In this document: positions 5,495 to 59,932 of the stretch, piece after piece
Layout of the letters: each line of letters opens with the position of its first letter
Numbering within the stretch: position 1 is the first letter of the stretch
DNA from: Escherichia coli
Lineage (GTDB): Bacteria > Pseudomonadota > Gammaproteobacteria > Enterobacterales > Enterobacteriaceae
Assembly (NCBI RefSeq): GCF_022846255.1
Contig: NZ_AP025682.1
DNA: 64,000 nt
Direction: 5' to 3' (one strand)
Made by a program: the position numbers and the translations under genes
The notes under the pieces: model-generated
Seen by the model: the letters and a program-made list of their open reading frames with translations, nothing else
Database searches by the model: none
Told to the model about the DNA's origin: nothing

Positions 5495-5521
5495 GATAAT
5501 GCTTATCAAAATTATTATCAC
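5495..5521 (+). promoter_or_regulatory. Fur box in fiu promoter
   Basis: gataatgcttatcaaaattattatcac closely matches the Fur consensus gataatgataatcattatc; about 100 nt upstream of fiu. Confidence 0.75.
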
Positions 5522-5623: not shown

Positions 5624-7906
5624 ATGGAAAACAATCGCAATTTCCCTGCCAGACAATTTCATTCGCTCACGTTCTTTGCCGGTCTTTGTATTGGTATTAC
5701 GCCTGTGGCACAGGCACTCGCTGCCGAAGGGCAAGCTAACGCGGATGACACGCTGGTTGTCGAAGCATCAACGCCTTCGCTTTATGCGCCACAACAATCT
5801 GCCGATCCGAAATTCTCGCGTCCGGTAGCGGATACTACCCGCACGATGACGGTGATTTCTGAACAAGTGATTAAAGATCAGGGTGCAACCAACCTTACCG
5901 ACGCACTCAAAAACGTCCCCGGCGTGGGTGCGTTTTTTGCGGGTGAGAACGGTAACTCCACCACTGGCGACGCCATTTATATGCGCGGTGCCGATACCTC
6001 TAACAGTATTTATATCGATGGCATTCGCGATATCGGCAGCGTCTCGCGCGACACCTTCAATACCGAGCAGGTCGAAGTAATTAAAGGGCCGTCCGGCACC
6101 GACTACGGGCGCAGCGCACCGACAGGCTCGATCAATATGATCAGCAAACAGCCGCGCAATGATTCCGGCATTGACGCCTCCGCCAGTATTGGCAGCGCCT
6201 GGTTCCGCCGCGGCACGCTGGACGTCAATCAGGTCATTGGTGATACCACTGCGGTGCGCCTGAATGTAATGGGCGAAAAAACGCACGATGCCGGACGCGA
6301 CAAAGTCAAAAATGAGCGTTACGGCGTCGCCCCTTCTGTCGCTTTTGGCCTTGGTACAGCGAATCGTTTGTATCTTAATTATCTGCATGTCACCCAGCAC
6401 AACACGCCAGACGGCGGCATTCCGACCATCGGTTTACCGGGTTATTCTGCCCCATCTGCGGGAACAGCAGCCCTGAATCATTCCGGAAAAGTTGATACTC
6501 ATAACTTTTACGGCACAGATTCCGATTACGACGATTCGACCACCGACACCGCTACCATGCGTTTTGAGCACGACATCAACGATAACACCACCATTCGCAA
6601 CACTACGCGTTGGTCGCGCGTAAAGCAGGATTACCTGATGACGGCGATTATGGGTGGAGCGTCGAATATTACCCAGCCCACCAGCGATGTGAATAGCTGG
6701 ACGTGGTCACGCACGGCGAATACCAAAGATGTGAGTAACAAAATTCTCACCAACCAGACCAACCTGACCTCGACGTTCTATACCGGCGCTATCGGTCATG
6801 ATCTCAGTACCGGCGTGGAATTTACCCGCGAAACACAGACTAACTATGGCGTTAATCCGGTGACGTTACCGGCGGTAAATATTTATCATCCTGACAGCAG
6901 CATTCATCCCGGCGGCCTGACGCGCAACGGCGCAAACGCCAATGGTCAGACGGATACCTTCGCAATTTATGCCTTCGATACGCTGCAAATCACCCGTGAT
7001 TTTGAGCTGAACGGCGGGATCCGTCTGGATAATTATCATACTGAATATGACAGTGCTACCGCCTGCGGCGGCAGCGGGCGCGGTGCCATCACCTGCCCTG
7101 CTGGCGTGGCAAAAGGTTCTCCGGTCACCACCGTCGACACCGCCAAGTCGGGCAATCTGGTGAACTGGAAAGCCGGGGCGCTGTATCACCTGACGGAAAA
7201 CGGCAATGTCTATATTAACTATGCCGTTTCCCAGCAGCCGCCGGGCGGCAACAACTTCGCCCTTGCGCAGTCTGGCAGCGGTAACAGTGCCAACCGCACC
7301 GATTTTAAACCACAAAAAGCCAACACCAGCGAGATTGGCACCAAATGGCAGGTTCTGGATAAACGCCTGCTACTTACCGCCGCGCTGTTCCGTACTGATA
7401 TTGAAAATGAAGTTGAGCAAAATGATGACGGGACTTATTCGCAATATGGTAAGAAACGTGTCGAAGGCTACGAGATATCCGTGGCCGGGAATATCACCCC
7501 CGCATGGCAGATGATTGGCGGCTATACCCAGCAAAAAGCAACTATCAAAAACGGCAAAGATGTTGCCCAGGATGGTTCCTCATCGCTGCCGTATACCCCG
7601 GAACACGCCTTCACCTTATGGAGCCAGTATCAGGCAACCGATGATATTTCTGTTGGTGCGGGCGCACGGTATATCGGCAGTATGCATAAAGTTTCAGACG
7701 GCGCGGTGGGGACGCCAGCATTTACCGAAGGTTATTGGGTCGCCGACGCCAAACTGGGGTATCGGGTTAATCGCAATCTCGACTTCCAGCTAAACGTCTA
7801 CAACCTGTTTGATACCGATTACGTCGCCTCAATCAATAAGAGCGGCTACCGTTATCACCCGGGCGAGCCAAGAACCTTCTTGCTCACAGCTAATATGCAT
7901 TTCTGA
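5624..7906 (+). CDS. fiu: TonB-dependent catecholate siderophore receptor Fiu
   Basis: 760-aa ORF, signal peptide, TonB box, plug and beta-barrel, C-terminal aromatic residue; Fur box upstream. Confidence 0.96.
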   Translation: MENNRNFPARQFHSLTFFAGLCIGITPVAQALAAEGQANADDTLVVEASTPSLYAPQQSADPKFSRPVADTTRTMTVISEQVIKDQGATNLTDALKNVPGVGAFFAGENGNSTTGDAIYMRGADTSNSIYIDGIRDIGSVSRDTFNTEQVEVIKGPSGTDYGRSAPTGSINMISKQPRNDSGIDASASIGSAWFRRGTLDVNQVIGDTTAVRLNVMGEKTHDAGRDKVKNERYGVAPSVAFGLGTANRLYLNYLHVTQHNTPDGGIPTIGLPGYSAPSAGTAALNHSGKVDTHNFYGTDSDYDDSTTDTATMRFEHDINDNTTIRNTTRWSRVKQDYLMTAIMGGASNITQPTSDVNSWTWSRTANTKDVSNKILTNQTNLTSTFYTGAIGHDLSTGVEFTRETQTNYGVNPVTLPAVNIYHPDSSIHPGGLTRNGANANGQTDTFAIYAFDTLQITRDFELNGGIRLDNYHTEYDSATACGGSGRGAITCPAGVAKGSPVTTVDTAKSGNLVNWKAGALYHLTENGNVYINYAVSQQPPGGNNFALAQSGSGNSANRTDFKPQKANTSEIGTKWQVLDKRLLLTAALFRTDIENEVEQNDDGTYSQYGKKRVEGYEISVAGNITPAWQMIGGYTQQKATIKNGKDVAQDGSSSLPYTPEHAFTLWSQYQATDDISVGAGARYIGSMHKVSDGAVGTPAFTEGYWVADAKLGYRVNRNLDFQLNVYNLFDTDYVASINKSGYRYHPGEPRTFLLTANMHF

Positions 7907-7956
7907 TTCAGATGTGGGGCGCAAGGCTCACTAATGTTGATGGCGAGAGCAGGACT

Positions 7957-8054
7957 GCCTGATGCGCTGCGCTTATCAGGCCTACAAGGTTGTGCAATAC
8001 ACTGAATTCACATCATTTGGTAGGCCGGATAAGGCGTTCACGCCGCATCCGGCA
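7957..8054. repeat. REP elements (BIME-like pair) between fiu and ybiX
   Basis: gcctgatgcgctgcgcttatcaggcctaca and gtaggccggataaggcgttcacgccgcatccggca match the REP consensus. Confidence 0.85.
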
Positions 8055-8087
8055 CCTGAGCACCATTGCCTGCTGTTAAAAATCGGT

Positions 8088-8110
8088 GTGGGGCGCAGGC
8101 CCCACTTTTT
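8088..8110 (+). terminator. terminator-like hairpin plus T-run immediately upstream of the ybiX RBS
   Basis: gtggggcgcaggccccac followed by TTTTT, 12 nt before the ybiX ATG; the Shine-Dalgarno ggag lies just after the T-run. Confidence 0.5.
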
Positions 8111-8121
8111 GGAGAACTTGT

Positions 8122-8799
8122 ATGATGTACCACATTCCCGGCGTGTTATCGCCACAGGACGTCGCCCGTTTTCGCGAACAACTGGAACAAGCCGAATGGG
8201 TGGATGGGCGCGTCACCACCGGCGCACAAGGTGCGCAAGTTAAGAACAATCAACAAGTAGACACCCGCAGCGCCCTGTACGCCGCCCTGCAAAATGAGGT
8301 GCTGAACGCGGTTAACCAACATGCTTTGTTCTTTGCCGCGGCCTTGCCGCGTACCCTTTCCACGCCGCTGTTTAATCGCTATCAGAACAATGAAACCTAT
8401 GGTTTTCATGTGGATGGCGCAGTACGCAGCCATCCACAAAACGGCTGGATGCGCACTGACCTTTCTGCCACGCTGTTTTTAAGCGATCCAGAAAGCTACG
8501 ACGGCGGCGAACTGGTCGTTAATGACACCTTCGGGCAACATCGGGTAAAACTCCCGGCAGGCGATCTGGTGTTGTATCCCTCCAGCAGCCTGCATTGCGT
8601 GACACCCGTAACCCGCGGCGTGCGAGTGGCATCATTTATGTGGATCCAGTCGATGATCCGCGATGATAAAAAGCGCGCCATGCTGTTTGAACTGGACAAC
8701 AATATTCAGTCGCTGAAAAGCCACTACGGCGAAAGTGAAGAGATCCTGTCGCTGCTCAATCTTTATCATAATCTGCTGCGGGAATGGTCGGAGATCTGA
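8122..8799 (+). CDS. ybiX: PKHD-type Fe(II)/2-oxoglutarate-dependent hydroxylase YbiX
   Basis: ORF track 8086-8799; start at MMYHIPGVL gives 225 aa; HxD...H iron-binding motif context; downstream of fiu as in the known fiu-ybiX unit. Confidence 0.92.
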
Positions 8800-8872
8800 C
8801 GCTTGAACTGCCCGAGTTCGTCCCTATATTAGCTACACTTAACTGTACAAGCATTGATATGGGGAGGACGAT

Positions 8873-9139
8873 ATGGCATCCGGTTGGGCTAATGATGACG
8901 CCGTCAACGAACAGATCAACAGTACAATTGAAGATGCGATTGCCCGCGCTCGGGGTGAAATTCCGCGTGGCGAAAGCCTGTATGAATGTGAAGAGTGCGG
9001 AGCCCTCATCCCGCAGGCCCGTCGGGAAGCCATTCCTGGCGTGCGCTTATGCATTCATTGTCAGCAGGAGAAAGATTTACAAAAACCAGATTATACAGGA
9101 TATAATCGCAGAGGTTCGAAAGACAGCCAGTTACGTTAA
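8873..9139 (+). CDS. ybiI: DksA/TraR-family C4-type zinc-finger protein YbiI
   Basis: 88-aa ORF with CxxC-N17-CxxC (CEECG...CIHCQ). Confidence 0.9.
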   Translation: MASGWANDDAVNEQINSTIEDAIARARGEIPRGESLYECEECGALIPQARREAIPGVRLCIHCQQEKDLQKPDYTGYNRRGSKDSQLR

Positions 9140-9403
9140 CTACAACTGGCGGGATGTATAGCGAATATAATTTGGATTTTGCGTGGCATTCCGTGCCTTT
9201 AACGCTACCGTGACTGCCACGCGGTATAAAACAAGTTCATAAGTACAACAAATAAATGGTTTATCAGTATGTTAGATATCAATCAATTTATTTGAACAAG
9301 GCGGTCAATTCTCTTCGATTTTATCTCTCGAAAAAAAACGTGATACTCATCACATCGACGAAACAACGTCACTTATACAAAAATCACCTGCGAGAGATTA
9401 ATT

Positions 9404-9664
9404 ATGAAAACTATCAATACTGTTGTTGCTGCTATGGCTCTTTCAACTCTGTCATTTGGCGTGTTCGCGGCGGAACCGGTAACGGCATCCCAGGCACAGA
9501 ACATGAATAAAATCGGCGTGGTTTCTGCCGATGGCGCATCCACCCTCGATGCCCTGGAAGCGAAACTGGCTGAGAAAGCCGCGGCGGCCGGTGCCAGTGG
9601 ATACAGCATTACTTCCGCCACCAACAACAATAAATTAAGCGGTACTGCGGTAATTTATAAGTAA
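9404..9664 (+). CDS. ybiJ: DUF1471 (YdgH/BhsA/McbA family) periplasmic protein YbiJ
   Basis: 86-aa ORF, signal peptide, C-terminal ...GTAVIYK; paralog of mcbA. Confidence 0.92.
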   Translation: MKTINTVVAAMALSTLSFGVFAAEPVTASQAQNMNKIGVVSADGASTLDALEAKLAEKAAAAGASGYSITSATNNNKLSGTAVIYK

Positions 9665-9667
9665 TTC

Positions 9668-9744
9668 GTAGGACGGATAAGGCGTTTACGCCGCATCCGG
9701 CAACAGATGCCTGATGCGACGCTACCGCGTCTTATCAGACCTAC
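9668..9744. repeat. REP elements downstream of ybiJ
   Basis: gtaggacggataaggcgtttacgccgcatccggca and gcctgatgcgacgctaccgcgtcttatcagacctac. Confidence 0.85.
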
Positions 9745-9864
9745 AAAATCCGAACCGTTGGCTGGATCAGGCGTTTACGCTACGTTCAGCACAAGTATTT
9801 CCCTGTCTGTTTGCCGACAGACGCATATGCTCTAACCCTCATTGATCCTATGTTACCCTTGTTT

Positions 9865-56794: not shown

Positions 56795-57943
56795 ATGAGT
56801 CTGAAAGAAAAAACACAATCTCTGTTTGCCAACGCATTTGGCTACCCTGCCACTCACACCATTCAGGCGCCTGGCCGCGTGAATTTGATTGGTGAACACA
56901 CCGACTACAACGACGGTTTCGTTCTGCCCTGCGCGATTGATTATCAAACCGTGATCAGTTGTGCACCACGCGATGACCGTAAAGTTCGCGTGATGGCAGC
57001 CGATTATGAAAATCAGCTCGACGAGTTTTCCCTTGATACGCCCATTATCGCGCATGAAAACTATCAATGGGCGAACTACGTTCGTGGCGTGGTGAAACAT
57101 CTGCAACTGCGTAACAACAACTTCGGCGGTGTGGACATGGTGATCAGCGGCAATGTGCCGCAGGGTGCCGGGTTAAGTTCTTCCGCTTCACTGGAAGTCG
57201 CGGTCGGAACCGTATTGCAGCAGCTTTATCATCTGCCGCTGGACGGCGCACAAATCGCGCTTAATGGTCAGGAAGCAGAAAACCAGTTTGTAGGCTGTAA
57301 CTGTGGAATCATGGATCAACTGATTTCCGCGCTCGGCAAGAAAGATCATGCCTTGCTGATCGATTGCCGCTCACTGGGGACCAAAGCTGTTTCCATGCCG
57401 AAAGGCGTGGCTGTCGTCATCATCAACAGTAACTTCAAACGTACCCTGGTTGGCAGCGAATACAACACCCGTCGTGAACAGTGCGAAACCGGTGCGCGTT
57501 TCTTCCAGCAGCCAGCTCTGCGCGATGTCACCATTGAAGAGTTCAACGCTGTTGCGCATGAACTGGACCCAATCGTGGCGAAACGCGTGCGTCATATCCT
57601 GACTGAAAACGCCCGCACCGTTGAAGCTGCCAGCGCACTGGAGCAAGGCGACCTGAAACGTATGGGCGAGTTGATGGCGGAGTCTCATGCCTCTATGCGC
57701 GATGATTTCGAAATCACCGTGCCGCAAATTGACACTCTGGTAGAAATCGTCAAAGCTGTGATTGGCGACAAAGGTGGCGTACGCATGACCGGCGGCGGAT
57801 TTGGTGGCTGTATCGTCGCGTTGATCCCGGAAGAGCTGGTGCCTGCCGTACAGCAAGCTGTCGCTGAACAATATGAAGCAAAAACAGGTATTAAAGAGAC
57901 TTTTTACGTTTGTAAACCATCACAAGGAGCAGGACAGTGCTGA
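56795..57943 (+). CDS. galK: galactokinase
   Basis: 382-aa ORF, GHMP kinase motifs ([25 protein letters not shown]). Confidence 0.97.
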
Positions 57944-58977
57944 ACGAAACTCCCGCACTGGCACCCGATGGTCAGCCGTACCGACTGTTAACTTTGCGTA
58001 ACAACGCAGGGATGGTAGTCACGCTGATGGACTGGGGTGCGACTTTACTTTCCGCCCGTATTCCGCTTTCCGATGGCAGCGTCCGCGAGGCGCTGCTCGG
58101 CTGTGCCAGCCCGGAATGCTATCAGGATCAGGCCGCATTTCTGGGGGCCTCTATTGGTCGTTATGCCAACCGTATCGCCAATAGCCGTTATACCTTTGAC
58201 GGTGAAACCGTGACGCTTTCGCCAAGTCAGGGCGTTAACCAGCTGCACGGCGGCCCGGAAGGGTTCGACAAACGTCGCTGGCAGATTGTGAACCAGAACG
58301 ATCGTCAGGTGCTGTTTGCCCTGAGTTCAGATGATGGCGATCAGGGCTTCCCGGGTAATCTCGGCGCGACGGTACAATATCGTCTGACCGACGATAACCG
58401 TATCTCTATTACTTATCGCGCCACAGTTGATAAACCTTGCCCGGTGAATATGACTAATCACGTCTATTTCAATCTTGACGGCGAGCAGTCTGACGTGCGC
58501 AATCACAAGTTGCAGATTCTGGCGGACGAATATCTTCCGGTTGATGAAGGCGGCATTCCGCACGACGGCCTGAAATCTGTCGCCGGAACGTCTTTTGATT
58601 TCCGCAGCGCCAAAATCATCGCCAGTGAGTTTCTTGCCGACGACGATCAGCGCAAAGTGAAAGGTTACGATCACGCGTTCTTGTTACAGGCCAAAGGCGA
58701 TGGCAAGAAAGTGGCGGCACATGTCTGGTCAGCAGATGAAAAATTGCAGCTGAAGGTCTACACCACCGCTCCGGCTCTGCAATTCTACTCCGGCAACTAC
58801 CTCGGCGGCACATCGTCGCGGGGAACCGAACCTTACGCCGACTGGCAAGGGCTGGCTCTGGAAAGCGAATTTCTGCCGGACAGCCCGAACCACCCTGAAT
58901 GGCCGCAACCGGACTGTTTCCTGCGTCCTGGCGAAGAGTATTCCAGCCTGACGGAATATCAGTTTATTGCTCAGTAA
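57937..58977 (+). CDS. galM: aldose 1-epimerase (mutarotase)
   Basis: 346-aa ORF overlapping galK end. Confidence 0.96.
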
Positions 58978-59135
58978 TGTTAAGCCCTCGTCATGAGGGC
59001 TTTATCTTCATATTGTTCAAATCACCAGCAAACACCGACATATTTGCAACTCAATATTCACAACAACCTTACACTGCGACACTATTTTCGCTATGGTTAT
59101 GCGTAAGCATTGCTGTTGCTTCGTCACGGCAATAT

Positions 59136-59154
59136 AATGAGAATTATTATCATT
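59136..59154 (+). promoter_or_regulatory. Fur-like box upstream of gpmA
   Basis: aatgagaattattatcatt resembles the Fur consensus; gpmA is, as I recall, Fur-repressed. Confidence 0.5.
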
Positions 59155-59179
59155 AAAAGATGATTTGAGGAGTAAGTAT

Positions 59180-59932
59180 ATGGCTGTAACTAAGCTGGTT
59201 CTGGTTCGTCATGGCGAAAGTCAGTGGAACAAAGAAAACCGTTTCACCGGTTGGTACGACGTGGATCTGTCTGAGAAAGGCGTAAGCGAAGCAAAAGCAG
59301 CAGGTAAGCTGCTGAAAGAGGAAGGTTACAGCTTTGACTTTGCTTACACTTCTGTGCTGAAACGCGCTATCCATACCCTGTGGAATGTGCTGGACGAACT
59401 GGATCAGGCATGGCTGCCCGTTGAGAAATCCTGGAAACTGAACGAACGTCACTACGGTGCGTTGCAGGGTCTGAACAAAGCGGAAACTGCTGAAAAGTAT
59501 GGCGACGAGCAGGTGAAACAGTGGCGTCGTGGTTTTGCAGTGACTCCGCCGGAACTGACTAAAGATGATGAGCGTTATCCGGGTCACGATCCGCGTTACG
59601 CGAAACTGAGCGAAAAAGAACTGCCGCTGACGGAAAGCCTGGCGCTGACCATTGACCGCGTGATCCCTTACTGGAATGAAACCATTCTGCCGCGTATGAA
59701 GAGCGGTGAGCGCGTGATCATCGCTGCACACGGTAACTCTTTACGTGCGCTGGTGAAATATCTTGATAATATGAGTGAAGAAGAGATTCTTGAGCTGAAT
59801 ATCCCGACTGGCGTGCCGCTGGTGTATGAGTTCGACGAGAATTTCAAACCGCTGAAACGTTATTATCTGGGTAATGCTGACGAGATCGCGGCGAAAGCAG
59901 CGGCGGTTGCTAACCAGGGTAAAGCGAAGTAA
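59180..59932 (+). CDS. gpmA: 2,3-bisphosphoglycerate-dependent phosphoglycerate mutase
   Basis: ORF track 59165-59932; 250 aa from [17 protein letters not shown] (catalytic RHGE). Confidence 0.97.

What the first reader, a model, noticed from the sequence alone, without database searches (positions are those of the whole stretch)
8873..9139. ybiI: stand-alone DksA/TraR-type C4 zinc-finger protein
The 88-aa protein carries the CxxC-N17-CxxC finger of RNA polymerase secondary-channel binders but is much shorter than DksA. It may be a condition-specific modulator of RNAP, and its position after a Fur-regulated unit suggests metal-linked expression.
Basis: inference. Interest (0 to 1): 0.3.

Follow-up and report, generated by a model that had tools for sequence, protein, structure and literature searches.

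The report
ybiI: small TraR-like zinc-finger protein
This is the already annotated E. coli gene ybiI, a small stress-induced zinc-finger protein built like the plasmid protein TraR, which plugs into a side channel of RNA polymerase. Its function has never been properly tested, and near-identical copies of its unusual tail turn up in hundreds of large lytic phages.

Summary
Window 8873-9139 (+) is E. coli ybiI: 88 aa, CxxC-N17-CxxC, Pfam PF01258, and it meets the NCBIfam YbiI equivalog.

The gene is already known. RefSeq annotates it, an NMR structure exists (PDB 2KGO), and a 2009 paper named it a putative RNA-polymerase secondary-channel protein. That paper said, as data not shown, that overexpressed YbiI rescues a dksA mutant.

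- **Fold.** The AF2 model superposes on RNAP-bound TraR (TM 0.79).
- **Binding residues.** The TraR arginines R48/R49 are conserved as R50/R51.
- **Tip.** The DxxDxA tip that TraR and DksA need is not kept. The family has an invariant G-W, then D-G-A.
- **DksA membership.** It fails: there is no two-helix coiled coil and no ppGpp-site residues.
- **Expression.** It is only partly metal-linked. Published data put ybiI in a Fur iModulon, but it has its own sigma-S promoter plus a sigma-32-like promoter. ybiX lies directly upstream in only 5 of 81 related loci.

New here: an invariant C-terminal peptide, YNRRGSKDSQLR, is shared by chromosomal homologs across gammaproteobacteria and by large virulent phages.

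Verdict: a known gene of modest interest. Its mechanism is inferred, not shown.

The parts
8873..9139 (+). ybiI coding sequence (88 codons plus stop)
   Evidence: ORF list and sequence. RefSeq annotation 'C4-type zinc finger protein YbiI' at the same coordinates. NCBIfam NF008243 equivalog.
8873..8920 (+). Codons 1-16, the family-specific N-terminal tip motif. It reads M-A-S-G-W-A-N-D-D-A-V-N-E-Q-I-N here; the family consensus is MAxGWAxDGAVQxQID.
   Evidence: G4 is invariant; W5, D8 and V11 are >=90% conserved and A10 is 85% conserved in 40 sequences at 49-67% identity to the query. The AF2 helix starts at residue 9.
8987..9061 (+). Codons 39-63, the C4 zinc finger CEEC-N17-CIHC. It includes I46-P47-x-A49-R50-R51, which aligns with TraR I44-P45-E46-A47-R48-R49.
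   Evidence: R48 and R49 of TraR are the rim-helix and beta' Si3 contacts (PMC9239242).
9101..9136 (+). Codons 77-88, the invariant C-terminal peptide Y-N-R-R-G-S-K-D-S-Q-L-R. TraR has no equivalent.
   Evidence: N78 and R79 are invariant and R80, S82, K83 and D84 are >=95% conserved in the family. Synonymous codons vary freely. The peptide is identical in phage homologs. AF2 confidence is low here, so it is probably disordered when free.
8863..8867 (+). Shine-Dalgarno GGAGG, 5 nt before the ATG
   Evidence: Read directly from the sequence. A purine-rich SD is kept in the enterobacterial orthologs aligned.
8832..8842 (+). Sigma-S-type extended -10 element, gCTACACTTAA (C at -13, TAA downstream)
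   Evidence: Sequence. CTAYAMTTA is conserved 30-55 nt before the ATG in 15 loci, against 0.27% of control windows. sigma-S dependence of the ybiI promoter was shown by ChIP-seq, qRT-PCR and KMnO4 footprinting (PMC4447067). Which hexamer that paper mapped could not be read from the held text.
8802..8829 (+). Sigma-32-like promoter, CTTGAAC-N13-CCCTATAT. The sigma-70 consensus scan also scores it, as TTGAAC-16-TATATT.
   Evidence: The same architecture lies 57-71 nt upstream of orthologs in Enterobacterales and Pseudomonas: 12/81 loci against 0/11480 control windows with one pattern, 13/81 against 0.2% with another. Assigning it to sigma-32 is inference.
5624..8799 (+). Upstream Fur-controlled genes fiu (5624-7906) and ybiX (8122-8799). 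Read-through from them probably adds iron-responsive expression.
   Evidence: ORFs, family hits, annotation. No terminator-like site lies between ybiX and ybiI. Fur-1 iModulon membership.
5495..5519 (.). Fur box upstream of fiu (overlapping 15/19 and 14/19 matches to GATAATGATAATCATTATC)
   Evidence: Only 8 positions in the 64-kb window score >=14/19.

Best explanation
ybiI encodes a chromosomal, stress-induced member of the TraR branch of the DksA/TraR family: a one-helix 'mini-DksA'.

Proposed mechanism:
- The zinc-ribbon globular domain docks on the beta' rim helices and beta' Si3 at the mouth of the RNA-polymerase secondary channel, through R50/R51 (TraR R48/R49).
- The single long N-terminal helix inserts into the channel, so that the fixed-length N-terminal tip (G4-W5-x-x-D8-G-A10) reaches the active-site region.
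- The short C-terminal helix and the invariant tail YNRRGSKDSQLR make a further, family-specific contact. My guess is the beta lobe/Si1 side, where the TraR C-helix binds.
- Binding alters the kinetics of transcription initiation in a DksA-like direction. It does so weakly or differently, because the first Asp of DxxDxA is replaced by Trp.

Expression comes from the gene's own sigma-S promoter and a likely sigma-32 promoter. In Escherichia and Citrobacter, Fur-controlled read-through from fiu-ybiX adds to this. The protein would therefore act in stationary phase, heat or proteotoxic stress, and iron limitation.

Shown here: family membership, a TraR-like fold, conservation of the RNAP-binding arginines, purifying selection on both termini, and conservation of the promoter sequences. 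From the literature: sigma-S dependence, Fur iModulon membership, and dksA complementation (data not shown in the paper). Inferred: RNAP binding, the role of the tip and tail, and the sigma-32 assignment.
For: Homology and fold:
- phmmer to TraR chains 5W1S_M and 6N57_M gives E ~1e-10.
- hhalign of the YbiI family against the TraR family gives probability 99.1 over YbiI 11-70.
- The AF2 model has helices at 9-28 and 61-70 flanking the zinc domain. It matches RNAP-bound TraR with TM 0.79 and rmsd 2.1 A over 67 columns.

Binding determinants:
- R50 is invariant and R51 is 87% conserved. They align with TraR R48 (rim helices) and R49 (beta' Si3).

Tip:
- D8 and A10 lie 31 and 29 residues before the first Cys, exactly as TraR D6 and A8 do.
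- The mature N-terminus always has two residues before G-[WF]: MAxGW with Met removed, or MNGW with Met kept. That is what an element inserted end-on into a channel would need.

Function:
- Overexpressed YbiI rescues dksA auxotrophy (PMC2613031).
- TraR homologs of phages bind RNAP and complement dksA (PMC9239242).

Regulation:
- sigma-S promoter and genomic SELEX peaks.
- Promoter motifs are conserved whatever gene lies upstream.
- The P. aeruginosa gene PA4870 is induced 13.9-fold by RpoH. I take it as the ortholog from gene order (plus my own knowledge of the PAO1 map).

Phage spread:
- YbiI-type genes occur in 579 phage records. This fits a protein that reprograms a core host machine.
Against: - No RNAP-YbiI interaction has been published or tested here. 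The only functional statement is 'data not shown' from 2009, and it required overexpression.
- The DxxDxA motif, both of whose aspartates are required in TraR and lambda Orf73, is not conserved. Profile alignment leaves residues 1-10 unaligned and puts A6 opposite TraR D6. Only a gapless alternative register makes D8 equal to D6.
- YbiI did not rescue a ppGpp0 strain, whereas TraR does.
- TIGR02419 (TraR subfamily) is met by only 0.1 bit.
- The tail has no counterpart in any solved RNAP complex, and AF2 gives it low confidence.
- sigma-32 regulon membership could equally point to a role in proteostasis.
Confidence: 0.55

Rival explanations
1. YbiI binds the RNAP secondary channel but is mainly an occupant or competitor, comparable to Rnk or Gfh1. 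With Trp in place of the first catalytic-site Asp, it would not act like DksA. Instead it would exclude DksA, GreA and GreB during stress or phage infection, or block the channel in some other way.
For: The binding arginines are conserved while DxxDxA is not. TraR homologs with an imperfect DxxDxA still bind but are less active. There is no rescue of ppGpp0. Rnk is a precedent for a competitor in this channel.
Against: Rescue of dksA auxotrophy implies some DksA-like positive activity, unless that effect is indirect. The extreme conservation of the tip (G4, W5, D8) suggests an active role rather than mere occupancy.
Confidence: 0.2
2. RNAP is not the target. The invariant termini, especially the C-terminal peptide YNRRGSKDSQLR, dock on another highly conserved machine such as the ribosome, a chaperone or protease, or a nucleotide-metabolism enzyme. 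The TraR-like zinc ribbon would be only the scaffold.
For: The most conserved parts of the protein are the ones TraR lacks. The gene has sigma-32-like promoters, and PA4870 is in the RpoH regulon among chaperones and proteases. Not all C4 DksA/TraR-like proteins act on RNAP.
Against: The RNAP-contact arginines and the whole TraR core are also conserved. The fold matches RNAP-bound TraR. The dksA rescue was reported. The tail never occurs on any other scaffold in 62 viral contigs.
Confidence: 0.17
3. YbiI is an iron-metabolism accessory of the fiu-ybiX unit. It might be a regulator or a substrate of the YbiX 2-oxoglutarate/Fe(II) hydroxylase, with the invariant tail as the modified peptide.
For: ybiX and ybiI are adjacent and co-expressed in E. 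coli. [quoted passage not shown] YbiX is a PKHD-type 2OG-Fe(II) oxygenase.
Against: ybiX is directly upstream in only 5 of 81 loci, and no neighbour is conserved across the family. Phage copies have no ybiX partner in the neighbourhoods examined. The gene has its own conserved promoter.
Confidence: 0.05

Closest known systems
TraR of the F plasmid (PDB 5W1S, 6N57)
   Same: One long N-terminal helix, a C4 zinc-ribbon globular domain and a C-terminal helix. The block IPxARRxxxPGVxLCxxCQ is shared, including the R48/R49 equivalents. The YbiI model superposes on RNAP-bound TraR.
   Different: YbiI has G-W-x-x-D-G-A at the tip instead of D-x-x-D-x-A. Its helix carries a 3-residue insertion in the profile alignment. 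It has 15 extra C-terminal residues ending in the invariant YNRRGSKDSQLR. It is chromosomal and driven by stress sigma factors rather than sitting in a transfer operon. It reportedly fails to rescue ppGpp0.
DksA (E. coli, 151 aa)
   Same: Same zinc-finger family (PF01258). The Arg that aligns with TraR R48 is shared (DksA R125 by my own alignment of the finger). Overexpressed YbiI is reported to rescue dksA auxotrophy.
   Different: YbiI has no two-helix coiled coil. It has I54 and Q64 at the positions of the ppGpp-site residues R129 and K139. It scores 17-18 bits against DksA models whose cut-offs are 105-115. Structural matches are weak (E = 0.05-0.3).
Phage TraR homologs (lambda Orf73, P2 Orf82, VP882 Orf61; Gopalkrishnan et al. 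2022)
   Same: Small C4 zinc-finger proteins of mobile elements that bind RNAP and reprogram host transcription. YbiI hits the same PHROG 54.
   Different: Those proteins are about 61-82 aa, carry DxxDxA, lack the tail, and three of the five come from the temperate phages lambda, P2 and VP882. YbiI-type phage genes sit in large virulent phages and carry the G[WF] tip and the invariant tail.
Pseudomonas aeruginosa PA4870
   Same: Probable ortholog. Pseudomonas loci with a YbiI-type gene sit between a PEP-mutase-family gene and an Hsp70-like gene on one side and urease genes on the other. PA4870 is annotated as a C4 zinc-finger 'DnaK suppressor'.
   Different: It is reported in the RpoH (sigma-32) regulon, 13.9-fold, rather than under sigma-S/Fur. 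The identity of PA4870 with these loci rests on my recollection of the PAO1 gene order, not on a sequence fetched here.
DksA2 of P. aeruginosa (Zur-regulated, zinc-independent DksA paralog)
   Different: DksA2 has lost the cysteines and is full length. YbiI keeps all four cysteines and is not in a Zur or COG0523 context, except in one metagenomic contig.

Membership tests
DksA/TraR C4 zinc-finger superfamily (Pfam PF01258) | CxxC-N17-CxxC finger scoring above the Pfam gathering threshold | tested here: met
   C39..C42 / 17 residues / C60..C63. 44.2 bits against 24.9.
YbiI equivalog (NCBIfam NF008243 / PRK11019) | Full-length match above the curated cut-off | tested here: met
   158.5 bits against 96, residues 1-88 on profile 1-88.
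TraR-type RNAP regulators | TIGR02419 (C4_traR_proteo) above its cut-off | tested here: met
   59.8 bits against 59.7, so met by 0.1 bit only. The F-TraR equivalog NF010268 is not met: 45.9 against 108.
TraR-type RNAP regulators | Architecture of a single N-terminal helix, a zinc globular domain and a C-terminal helix | tested here: met
   AF2 helices at 9-28 and 61-70 around the finger. Foldseek to 6N57_M gives TM 0.79 and rmsd 2.1 A.
TraR-type RNAP regulators | N-terminal DxxDxA motif (D3 and D6 are required for function) | tested here: not met
   The family consensus is G4-W5-x-x-D8-G9-A10, with no Asp at the first position. Whether D8/A10 equal D6/A8 depends on the register. The gapless alignment says yes; hhalign leaves residues 1-10 unaligned.
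TraR-type RNAP regulators | Arginines equivalent to R48 (rim helices) and R49 (beta' Si3) | tested here: met
   R50 is invariant and R51 is 87% conserved, aligned to R48/R49.
TraR-type RNAP regulators | C-terminal helix that contacts beta Si1 | tested here: inconclusive
   A helix at 61-70 is predicted and aligns with TraR 59-68. The sequence is variable there and is followed by a different, invariant tail. The contact itself cannot be tested here.
TraR-type RNAP regulators | Binds RNAP and regulates initiation; complements dksA | not testable with these tools
   The only evidence is a 'data not shown' statement of dksA rescue on overexpression (PMC2613031).
DksA proper | Two-helix coiled coil carrying the tip, about 150 aa | tested here: not met
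   88 aa, with a single helix before the finger. DksA models score 17-18 bits against cut-offs of 105-115.
DksA proper | ppGpp site-2 residues (K98, R129, K139) | tested here: not met
   Counting from the finger cysteines, R129 corresponds to I54 and K139 to Q64, and the K98 region is absent. This rests on my own alignment from the sequences, and the residue list is from my knowledge of the DksA literature.
Fur regulon | Fur box at the promoter that drives the gene | tested here: inconclusive
   A good Fur box lies upstream of fiu (15/19). Only a 13/19 match lies near ybiI, inside the ybiX 3' end. Co-expression is reported in the Fur-1 iModulon.
sigma-S regulon | -10 element with C at -13 and experimentally shown rpoS dependence | tested here: met
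   gCTACACTTAA at 8832-8842, conserved in orthologs. Dependence was shown in PMC4447067.
sigma-32 (RpoH) regulon | TTGAA -35 element and CnATnT -10 element at the proper spacing, with heat-shock induction | tested here: inconclusive
   The motif is present at 8802-8829 and upstream of orthologs far above background. PA4870 is RpoH-induced. The E. coli SELEX sigma-32 signal is weak, 3.1. No induction data for E. coli were found.

The most novel reading that the evidence does not exclude
YbiI-type proteins are a distinct and so far undescribed clade of TraR-like factors. The clade is defined by a G-[WF] tip at a fixed distance from the mature N-terminus and by an invariant 12-residue C-terminal peptide, YNRRGSKDSQLR. 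It is shared by gammaproteobacterial chromosomes, where it is under sigma-32 or sigma-S control, and by hundreds of large virulent phages (T4-like, Vequintavirinae, jumbo phages). The two termini would give a mode of control of RNA polymerase, or of another core machine, that differs from DksA and TraR and that phages have borrowed.
Probability: 0.35. Interest if true: 0.6.

Novelty: already known. Interest (0 to 1): 0.3.

Why it matters
E. coli is known to regulate RNA polymerase through its secondary channel with DksA, GreA, GreB and Rnk. ybiI may be a fifth such factor, chromosomal and conserved, and switched on by stress sigma factors. It has sat uncharacterised since 2009.

If it does bind RNAP, it would add a route for reprogramming transcription in stationary phase, heat stress and iron limitation that lacks DksA's ppGpp-binding residues. 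It would also explain why so many large lytic phages carry a copy with an identical tail.

If it does not bind RNAP, the invariant tail marks an unknown, very conserved host target that phages exploit.

Either result is reachable with simple biochemistry: binding and in vitro transcription with W5, D8, R50 and tail-deletion variants.

Tried and rejected
- **Conserved operon partner.** I called and clustered the neighbours of 81 genome loci. No neighbour is shared across the family. ybiX is directly upstream only in Escherichia, Citrobacter and Pseudocitrobacter. The idea of a conserved iron operon is rejected.
- **Zinc-limitation link.** One metagenomic contig has the homolog next to an amidohydrolase and a CobW/COG0523 gene. 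Nothing similar recurred among the neighbour clusters of the 81 loci, and the four cysteines are kept. Rejected as a family property.
- **RNA element.** An Rfam scan of 7800-9800 found only REP-derived naRNA4 matches outside the gene. Folding the 3' flank gave z = -1.0 and no U-tract terminator.
- **Register of the tip against TraR.** Pairwise phmmer, hhalign, the TIGR02419 ranges, a gapless alignment and the Foldseek identity counts give offsets of 0, 2 or 3. This stays unresolved.
- **Exact -10 element mapped by Peano et al.** The sequence is only in a figure and could not be read.
- **Nonaka et al. 2006 sigma-32 regulon paper.** It is not held, so E. coli heat-shock data could not be checked.
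- **'YbiI' c0940 in the CFT073 nitric-oxide study.** It sits next to a DNA adenine methylase and a putative phage baseplate gene, so I take it to be a prophage TraR-like gene, not this locus. Disregarded.
- **Tail on other scaffolds.** A degenerate-DNA scan of IMG/VR for the tail plus a stop codon found 62 contigs. Every one has it on an 85-90-aa YbiI-type protein or a truncation of one.
- **RNAP-YbiI complex model.** Not attempted. The tools predict single chains and report no interfaces.

Full report
**Observation**

The ORF at 8873-9139 (+) is real. It has an ATG start, GGAGG 5 nt upstream, and 88 codons. Its finger is C39-E-E-C42, then 17 residues, then C60-I-H-C63. It scores above threshold for Pfam PF01258 and for the NCBIfam YbiI equivalog NF008243.

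The window is E. coli chromosome. The 1.8 kb around the gene is 100% identical to several RefSeq genomes and is annotated fiu / ybiX / ybiI / ybiJ. It is present at >=80% coverage in 5418 of 5426 complete genomes. dN/dS against enterobacterial orthologs is 0.03-0.22. PDB 2KGO is an NMR structure of the K-12 protein, and this allele differs from it at three variable positions.

**What was already known**

- Blankschien et al. 2009 found YbiI by BLAST with TraR and listed it as a putative secondary-channel protein. They stated, as data not shown, that high-level expression rescues the amino-acid auxotrophy of a dksA mutant but not of a relA spoT mutant. [quoted passage not shown]
- Peano et al. 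2015 showed rpoS-dependent expression of ybiI. They also showed preferential open-complex formation by sigma-S holoenzyme on the ybiX-ybiI spacer.
- Genomic SELEX puts a strong sigma-38 peak and weak peaks for other sigma factors there.
- ybiI is in the Fur-1 iModulon with fiu and ybiX and in an iModulon named 'ybiIXL'.
- It is induced in serum and at the transition to stationary phase.

The finding is therefore a known, annotated gene whose biochemical function is untested.

**Relationship to TraR and DksA**

By sequence the nearest solved relatives are TraR chains (E ~1e-10). DksA is marginal (E = 0.1). A profile-profile comparison of 40 YbiI-family sequences with 14 TraR sequences gives probability 99.1 over YbiI 11-70.

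An AF2 model (mean pLDDT 75.6) has a helix at 9-28, the zinc domain, a helix at 61-70, and low-confidence ends. It superposes on RNAP-bound TraR 6N57_M with TM 0.79 and rmsd 2.1 A. DksA chains match only weakly.

Gopalkrishnan et al. 2022 list the features that make TraR work:
- the N-terminal DxxDxA motif, with both D3 and D6 required;
- R48, which contacts the rim helices;
- R49, which contacts beta' Si3;
- the C-terminal helix, which contacts beta Si1.

In YbiI the arginines are conserved: R50 is invariant and R51 is 87% conserved. DxxDxA is not. The family consensus is M-A-x-G-W-A-x-D-G-A-V-Q-x-Q-I-D, with G4 invariant and W5 and D8 >=90% conserved.

A gapless alignment anchored on the finger puts D8 on TraR D6 and A10 on A8, both at identical spacing from the first Cys, and puts W5 on D3. 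The profile alignment instead inserts three residues in the YbiI helix and leaves residues 1-10 unaligned. The register is unresolved.

What is clear is that the first Asp is replaced by an invariant aromatic residue. YbiI also fails every DksA-specific test: no coiled coil, no ppGpp-site residues, and DksA model scores far below cut-off.

**Family-specific termini**

The most conserved parts of the protein are the ones TraR lacks. The last twelve residues, Y-N-R-R-G-S-K-D-S-Q-L-R, are almost invariant in representatives only 49-67% identical to the query overall.

I looked at the 150 best cluster representatives from an exhaustive HMMER search:
- 74 have the intact tail.
- Most of the remainder show frame-shifted or truncated remnants of it.

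Synonymous positions in the tail vary freely. Leu87 and Arg80 each use six codons, and Ser82 uses both AGY and TCN codons. Selection is therefore on the peptide, not on an RNA or DNA element. AF2 leaves the tail disordered, so it behaves like a short linear motif that folds on a partner.

The N-terminus is length-constrained too. Sequences start either MAxG[WF] or MNGW. By the standard rule for removal of the initiator methionine, both leave exactly two residues before G-[WF]. That rule is established knowledge, and applying it here is my inference.

**Distribution and context**

A scan of one genome per species found more than 573 loci. The best 80 are all gammaproteobacteria or unclassified Proteobacteria MAGs: Enterobacterales, Pseudomonas/Stutzerimonas, Halomonadaceae, Xanthomonadales and Woeseiaceae.

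Clustering of the neighbours shows no conserved partner:
- ybiX is directly upstream in 5 of 81 loci (Escherichia, Citrobacter, Pseudocitrobacter).
- Other enterics have rlmF (on the opposite strand) or a flavin reductase upstream.
- Pseudomonas has a PEP-mutase-family gene.
- Halomonads have a BCCT transporter.

The Fur-unit adjacency is therefore lineage-specific.

**Promoters**

The spacer upstream of ybiI carries two elements:
- gCTACACTTAA at 8832-8842, a textbook sigma-S extended -10;
- CTTGAAC-N13-CCCTATAT at 8802-8829, immediately upstream, which fits the sigma-32 consensus (TTGAA / CnATnT).

Both are conserved in enterobacterial orthologs whichever gene lies upstream. The sigma-S-type element occurs in 15 loci, against 0.27% of control windows.

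Sigma-32-like promoters lie 57-71 nt before the start codon in Pseudomonas and enteric loci. One pattern hits 12/81 loci against 0/11480 controls, and another hits 13/81 against 0.2%. This matches the published 13.9-fold RpoH induction of P. aeruginosa PA4870. I equate PA4870 with these loci by gene order.

No terminator-like site separates ybiX from ybiI, and a Fur box precedes fiu. Iron-responsive read-through in E. coli is therefore plausible and agrees with the iModulon data.

**Phages**

A tblastn search against 50,697 phage records hit 873. Of these, 579 cover >=80% of the protein.

Sampled homologs have the G-[FW] tip and a C-terminus 100% identical to the E. coli protein, while the rest is only 41-56% identical. 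They come from:
- Straboviridae of Klebsiella, Enterobacter, Acinetobacter and Aeromonas;
- Vequintavirinae;
- Privateervirus;
- the jumbo Alexandravirus and Asteriusvirus;
- a Xanthomonas jumbo phage.

A degenerate-DNA scan of IMG/VR for the tail plus a stop codon found 62 contigs. The tail is always on an 85-90-aa YbiI-type scaffold or a truncation of one. P2-like temperate phages carry the short TraR-type version instead. I found no paper describing this clade.

**Mechanism**

The best-supported reading is a TraR-like secondary-channel factor. The zinc domain sits on the rim helices and Si3 through R50/R51. The N-helix lies in the channel with a modified tip. The tail makes an extra contact. 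Output is stress-gated.

Confidence is about 0.55, because RNAP binding is inferred rather than shown and because the defining DxxDxA feature fails. The rivals are:
- a pure competitor in the channel (0.2);
- a target other than RNAP, read out by the invariant termini (0.17);
- an iron or YbiX accessory role (0.05).

**Verdict**

The gene is already known, so its novelty as a finding is low. The phage-shared invariant tail and the altered tip are worth a specialist's experiment, hence an interest score of 0.3 and a separate novel case.

Noticed in passing
Phage loci L085-L094 (e.g. L085:1144-1404, L087:2501-2761, L092:151-420); IMG/VR loci L097-L158: Large virulent phages of many gammaproteobacterial hosts encode full-length YbiI-type proteins. 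Their last 12 residues (YNRRGSKDSQLR) are identical to the E. coli protein although the rest is only 41-56% identical. 579 of 50,697 phage records cover >=80% of YbiI.
   Followed up: partly
L095:151-408 (Klebsiella phage Marfa), L096:151-408 (Escherichia phage slurp01): A second, different conserved C-terminal tail (...FKRxPRNCWHRSMR) sits on the same G-F / zinc-finger scaffold. The tail may be an exchangeable module.
   Followed up: no
L105, L142, L145, L146, L154 (IMG/VR jumbo-phage contigs); L103, L104, L113-L119: Some phage YbiI-type proteins have His in place of the fourth cysteine (C-x-x-H). Others have a widened first knuckle (C-x-N-P-x-C). The metal site varies while the tail stays invariant.
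   Followed up: no
window 8802-8829 and upstream regions of L007, L008, L018, L020, L021, L024, L025, L027, L029, L030, L033, L036, L038, L039, L043, L044, L058, L069: A sigma-32-like promoter (CTTG..-N-CCCCATAT / CATATCT) is conserved 57-71 nt upstream of ybiI orthologs in both Enterobacterales and Pseudomonas. No heat-shock data for E. coli ybiI were available in the papers held.
   Followed up: partly
window 8755-8773: A 13/19 match to the Fur-box consensus (GATTATGATAAAGATTGAG, minus strand) lies inside the 3' end of ybiX, about 60 nt upstream of the ybiI promoter elements. Only 24 positions in the 64-kb window score this high.
   Followed up: no
window 59133-59151: The best Fur-box match in the window (16/19, TATAATGAGAATTATTATC) lies between a 346-aa ORF (57937-58977) and a 255-aa ORF (59165-59932). 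From their translations I take these to be galM and gpmA; no family search was run.
   Followed up: partly
window 8023-8101 and 9671-9741: REP-type repeats (Rfam naRNA4: 72.7 bits above threshold at 9671-9741, 48.1 bits below threshold at 8023-8101) flank the ybiX-ybiI-ybiJ block. The first ends in a G+C hairpin followed by a T-run (8088-8105) between fiu and ybiX, which could attenuate read-through from fiu.
   Followed up: no
window 9126-9150: A 9-bp inverted repeat (GCCAGTTACGTTAACTACAACTGGC) spans the last codons and the stop codon of ybiI. No U-tract follows it, and no clear intrinsic terminator lies before ybiJ.
   Followed up: no
L001:1936-5115: In one metagenomic contig a YbiI homolog lies after an Ldh_2 (ybiC-like) gene. 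It is followed by an amidohydrolase, a CobW/COG0523 gene and a 36-aa ORF, which resembles a zinc-limitation cluster. The pattern was not seen in the 81 genome loci.
   Followed up: partly
window 9404-9664, and L084:3368-3427 in the matching RefSeq record: ybiJ (DUF1471, BhsA/McbA-like stress protein) lies directly downstream on the same strand. RefSeq also annotates a 19-codon ybiE between ybiJ and hcxB (formerly ybiC).
   Followed up: no
proteins P0121-P0270: Many cluster representatives of the YbiI family are frame-shifted or fused ORFs, for example tails reading ...LQPPRQQGQP... or ...IAAAAKTAS.... Representatives taken at 50% identity over-sample sequencing and gene-calling errors for such a short gene.
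   Followed up: partly
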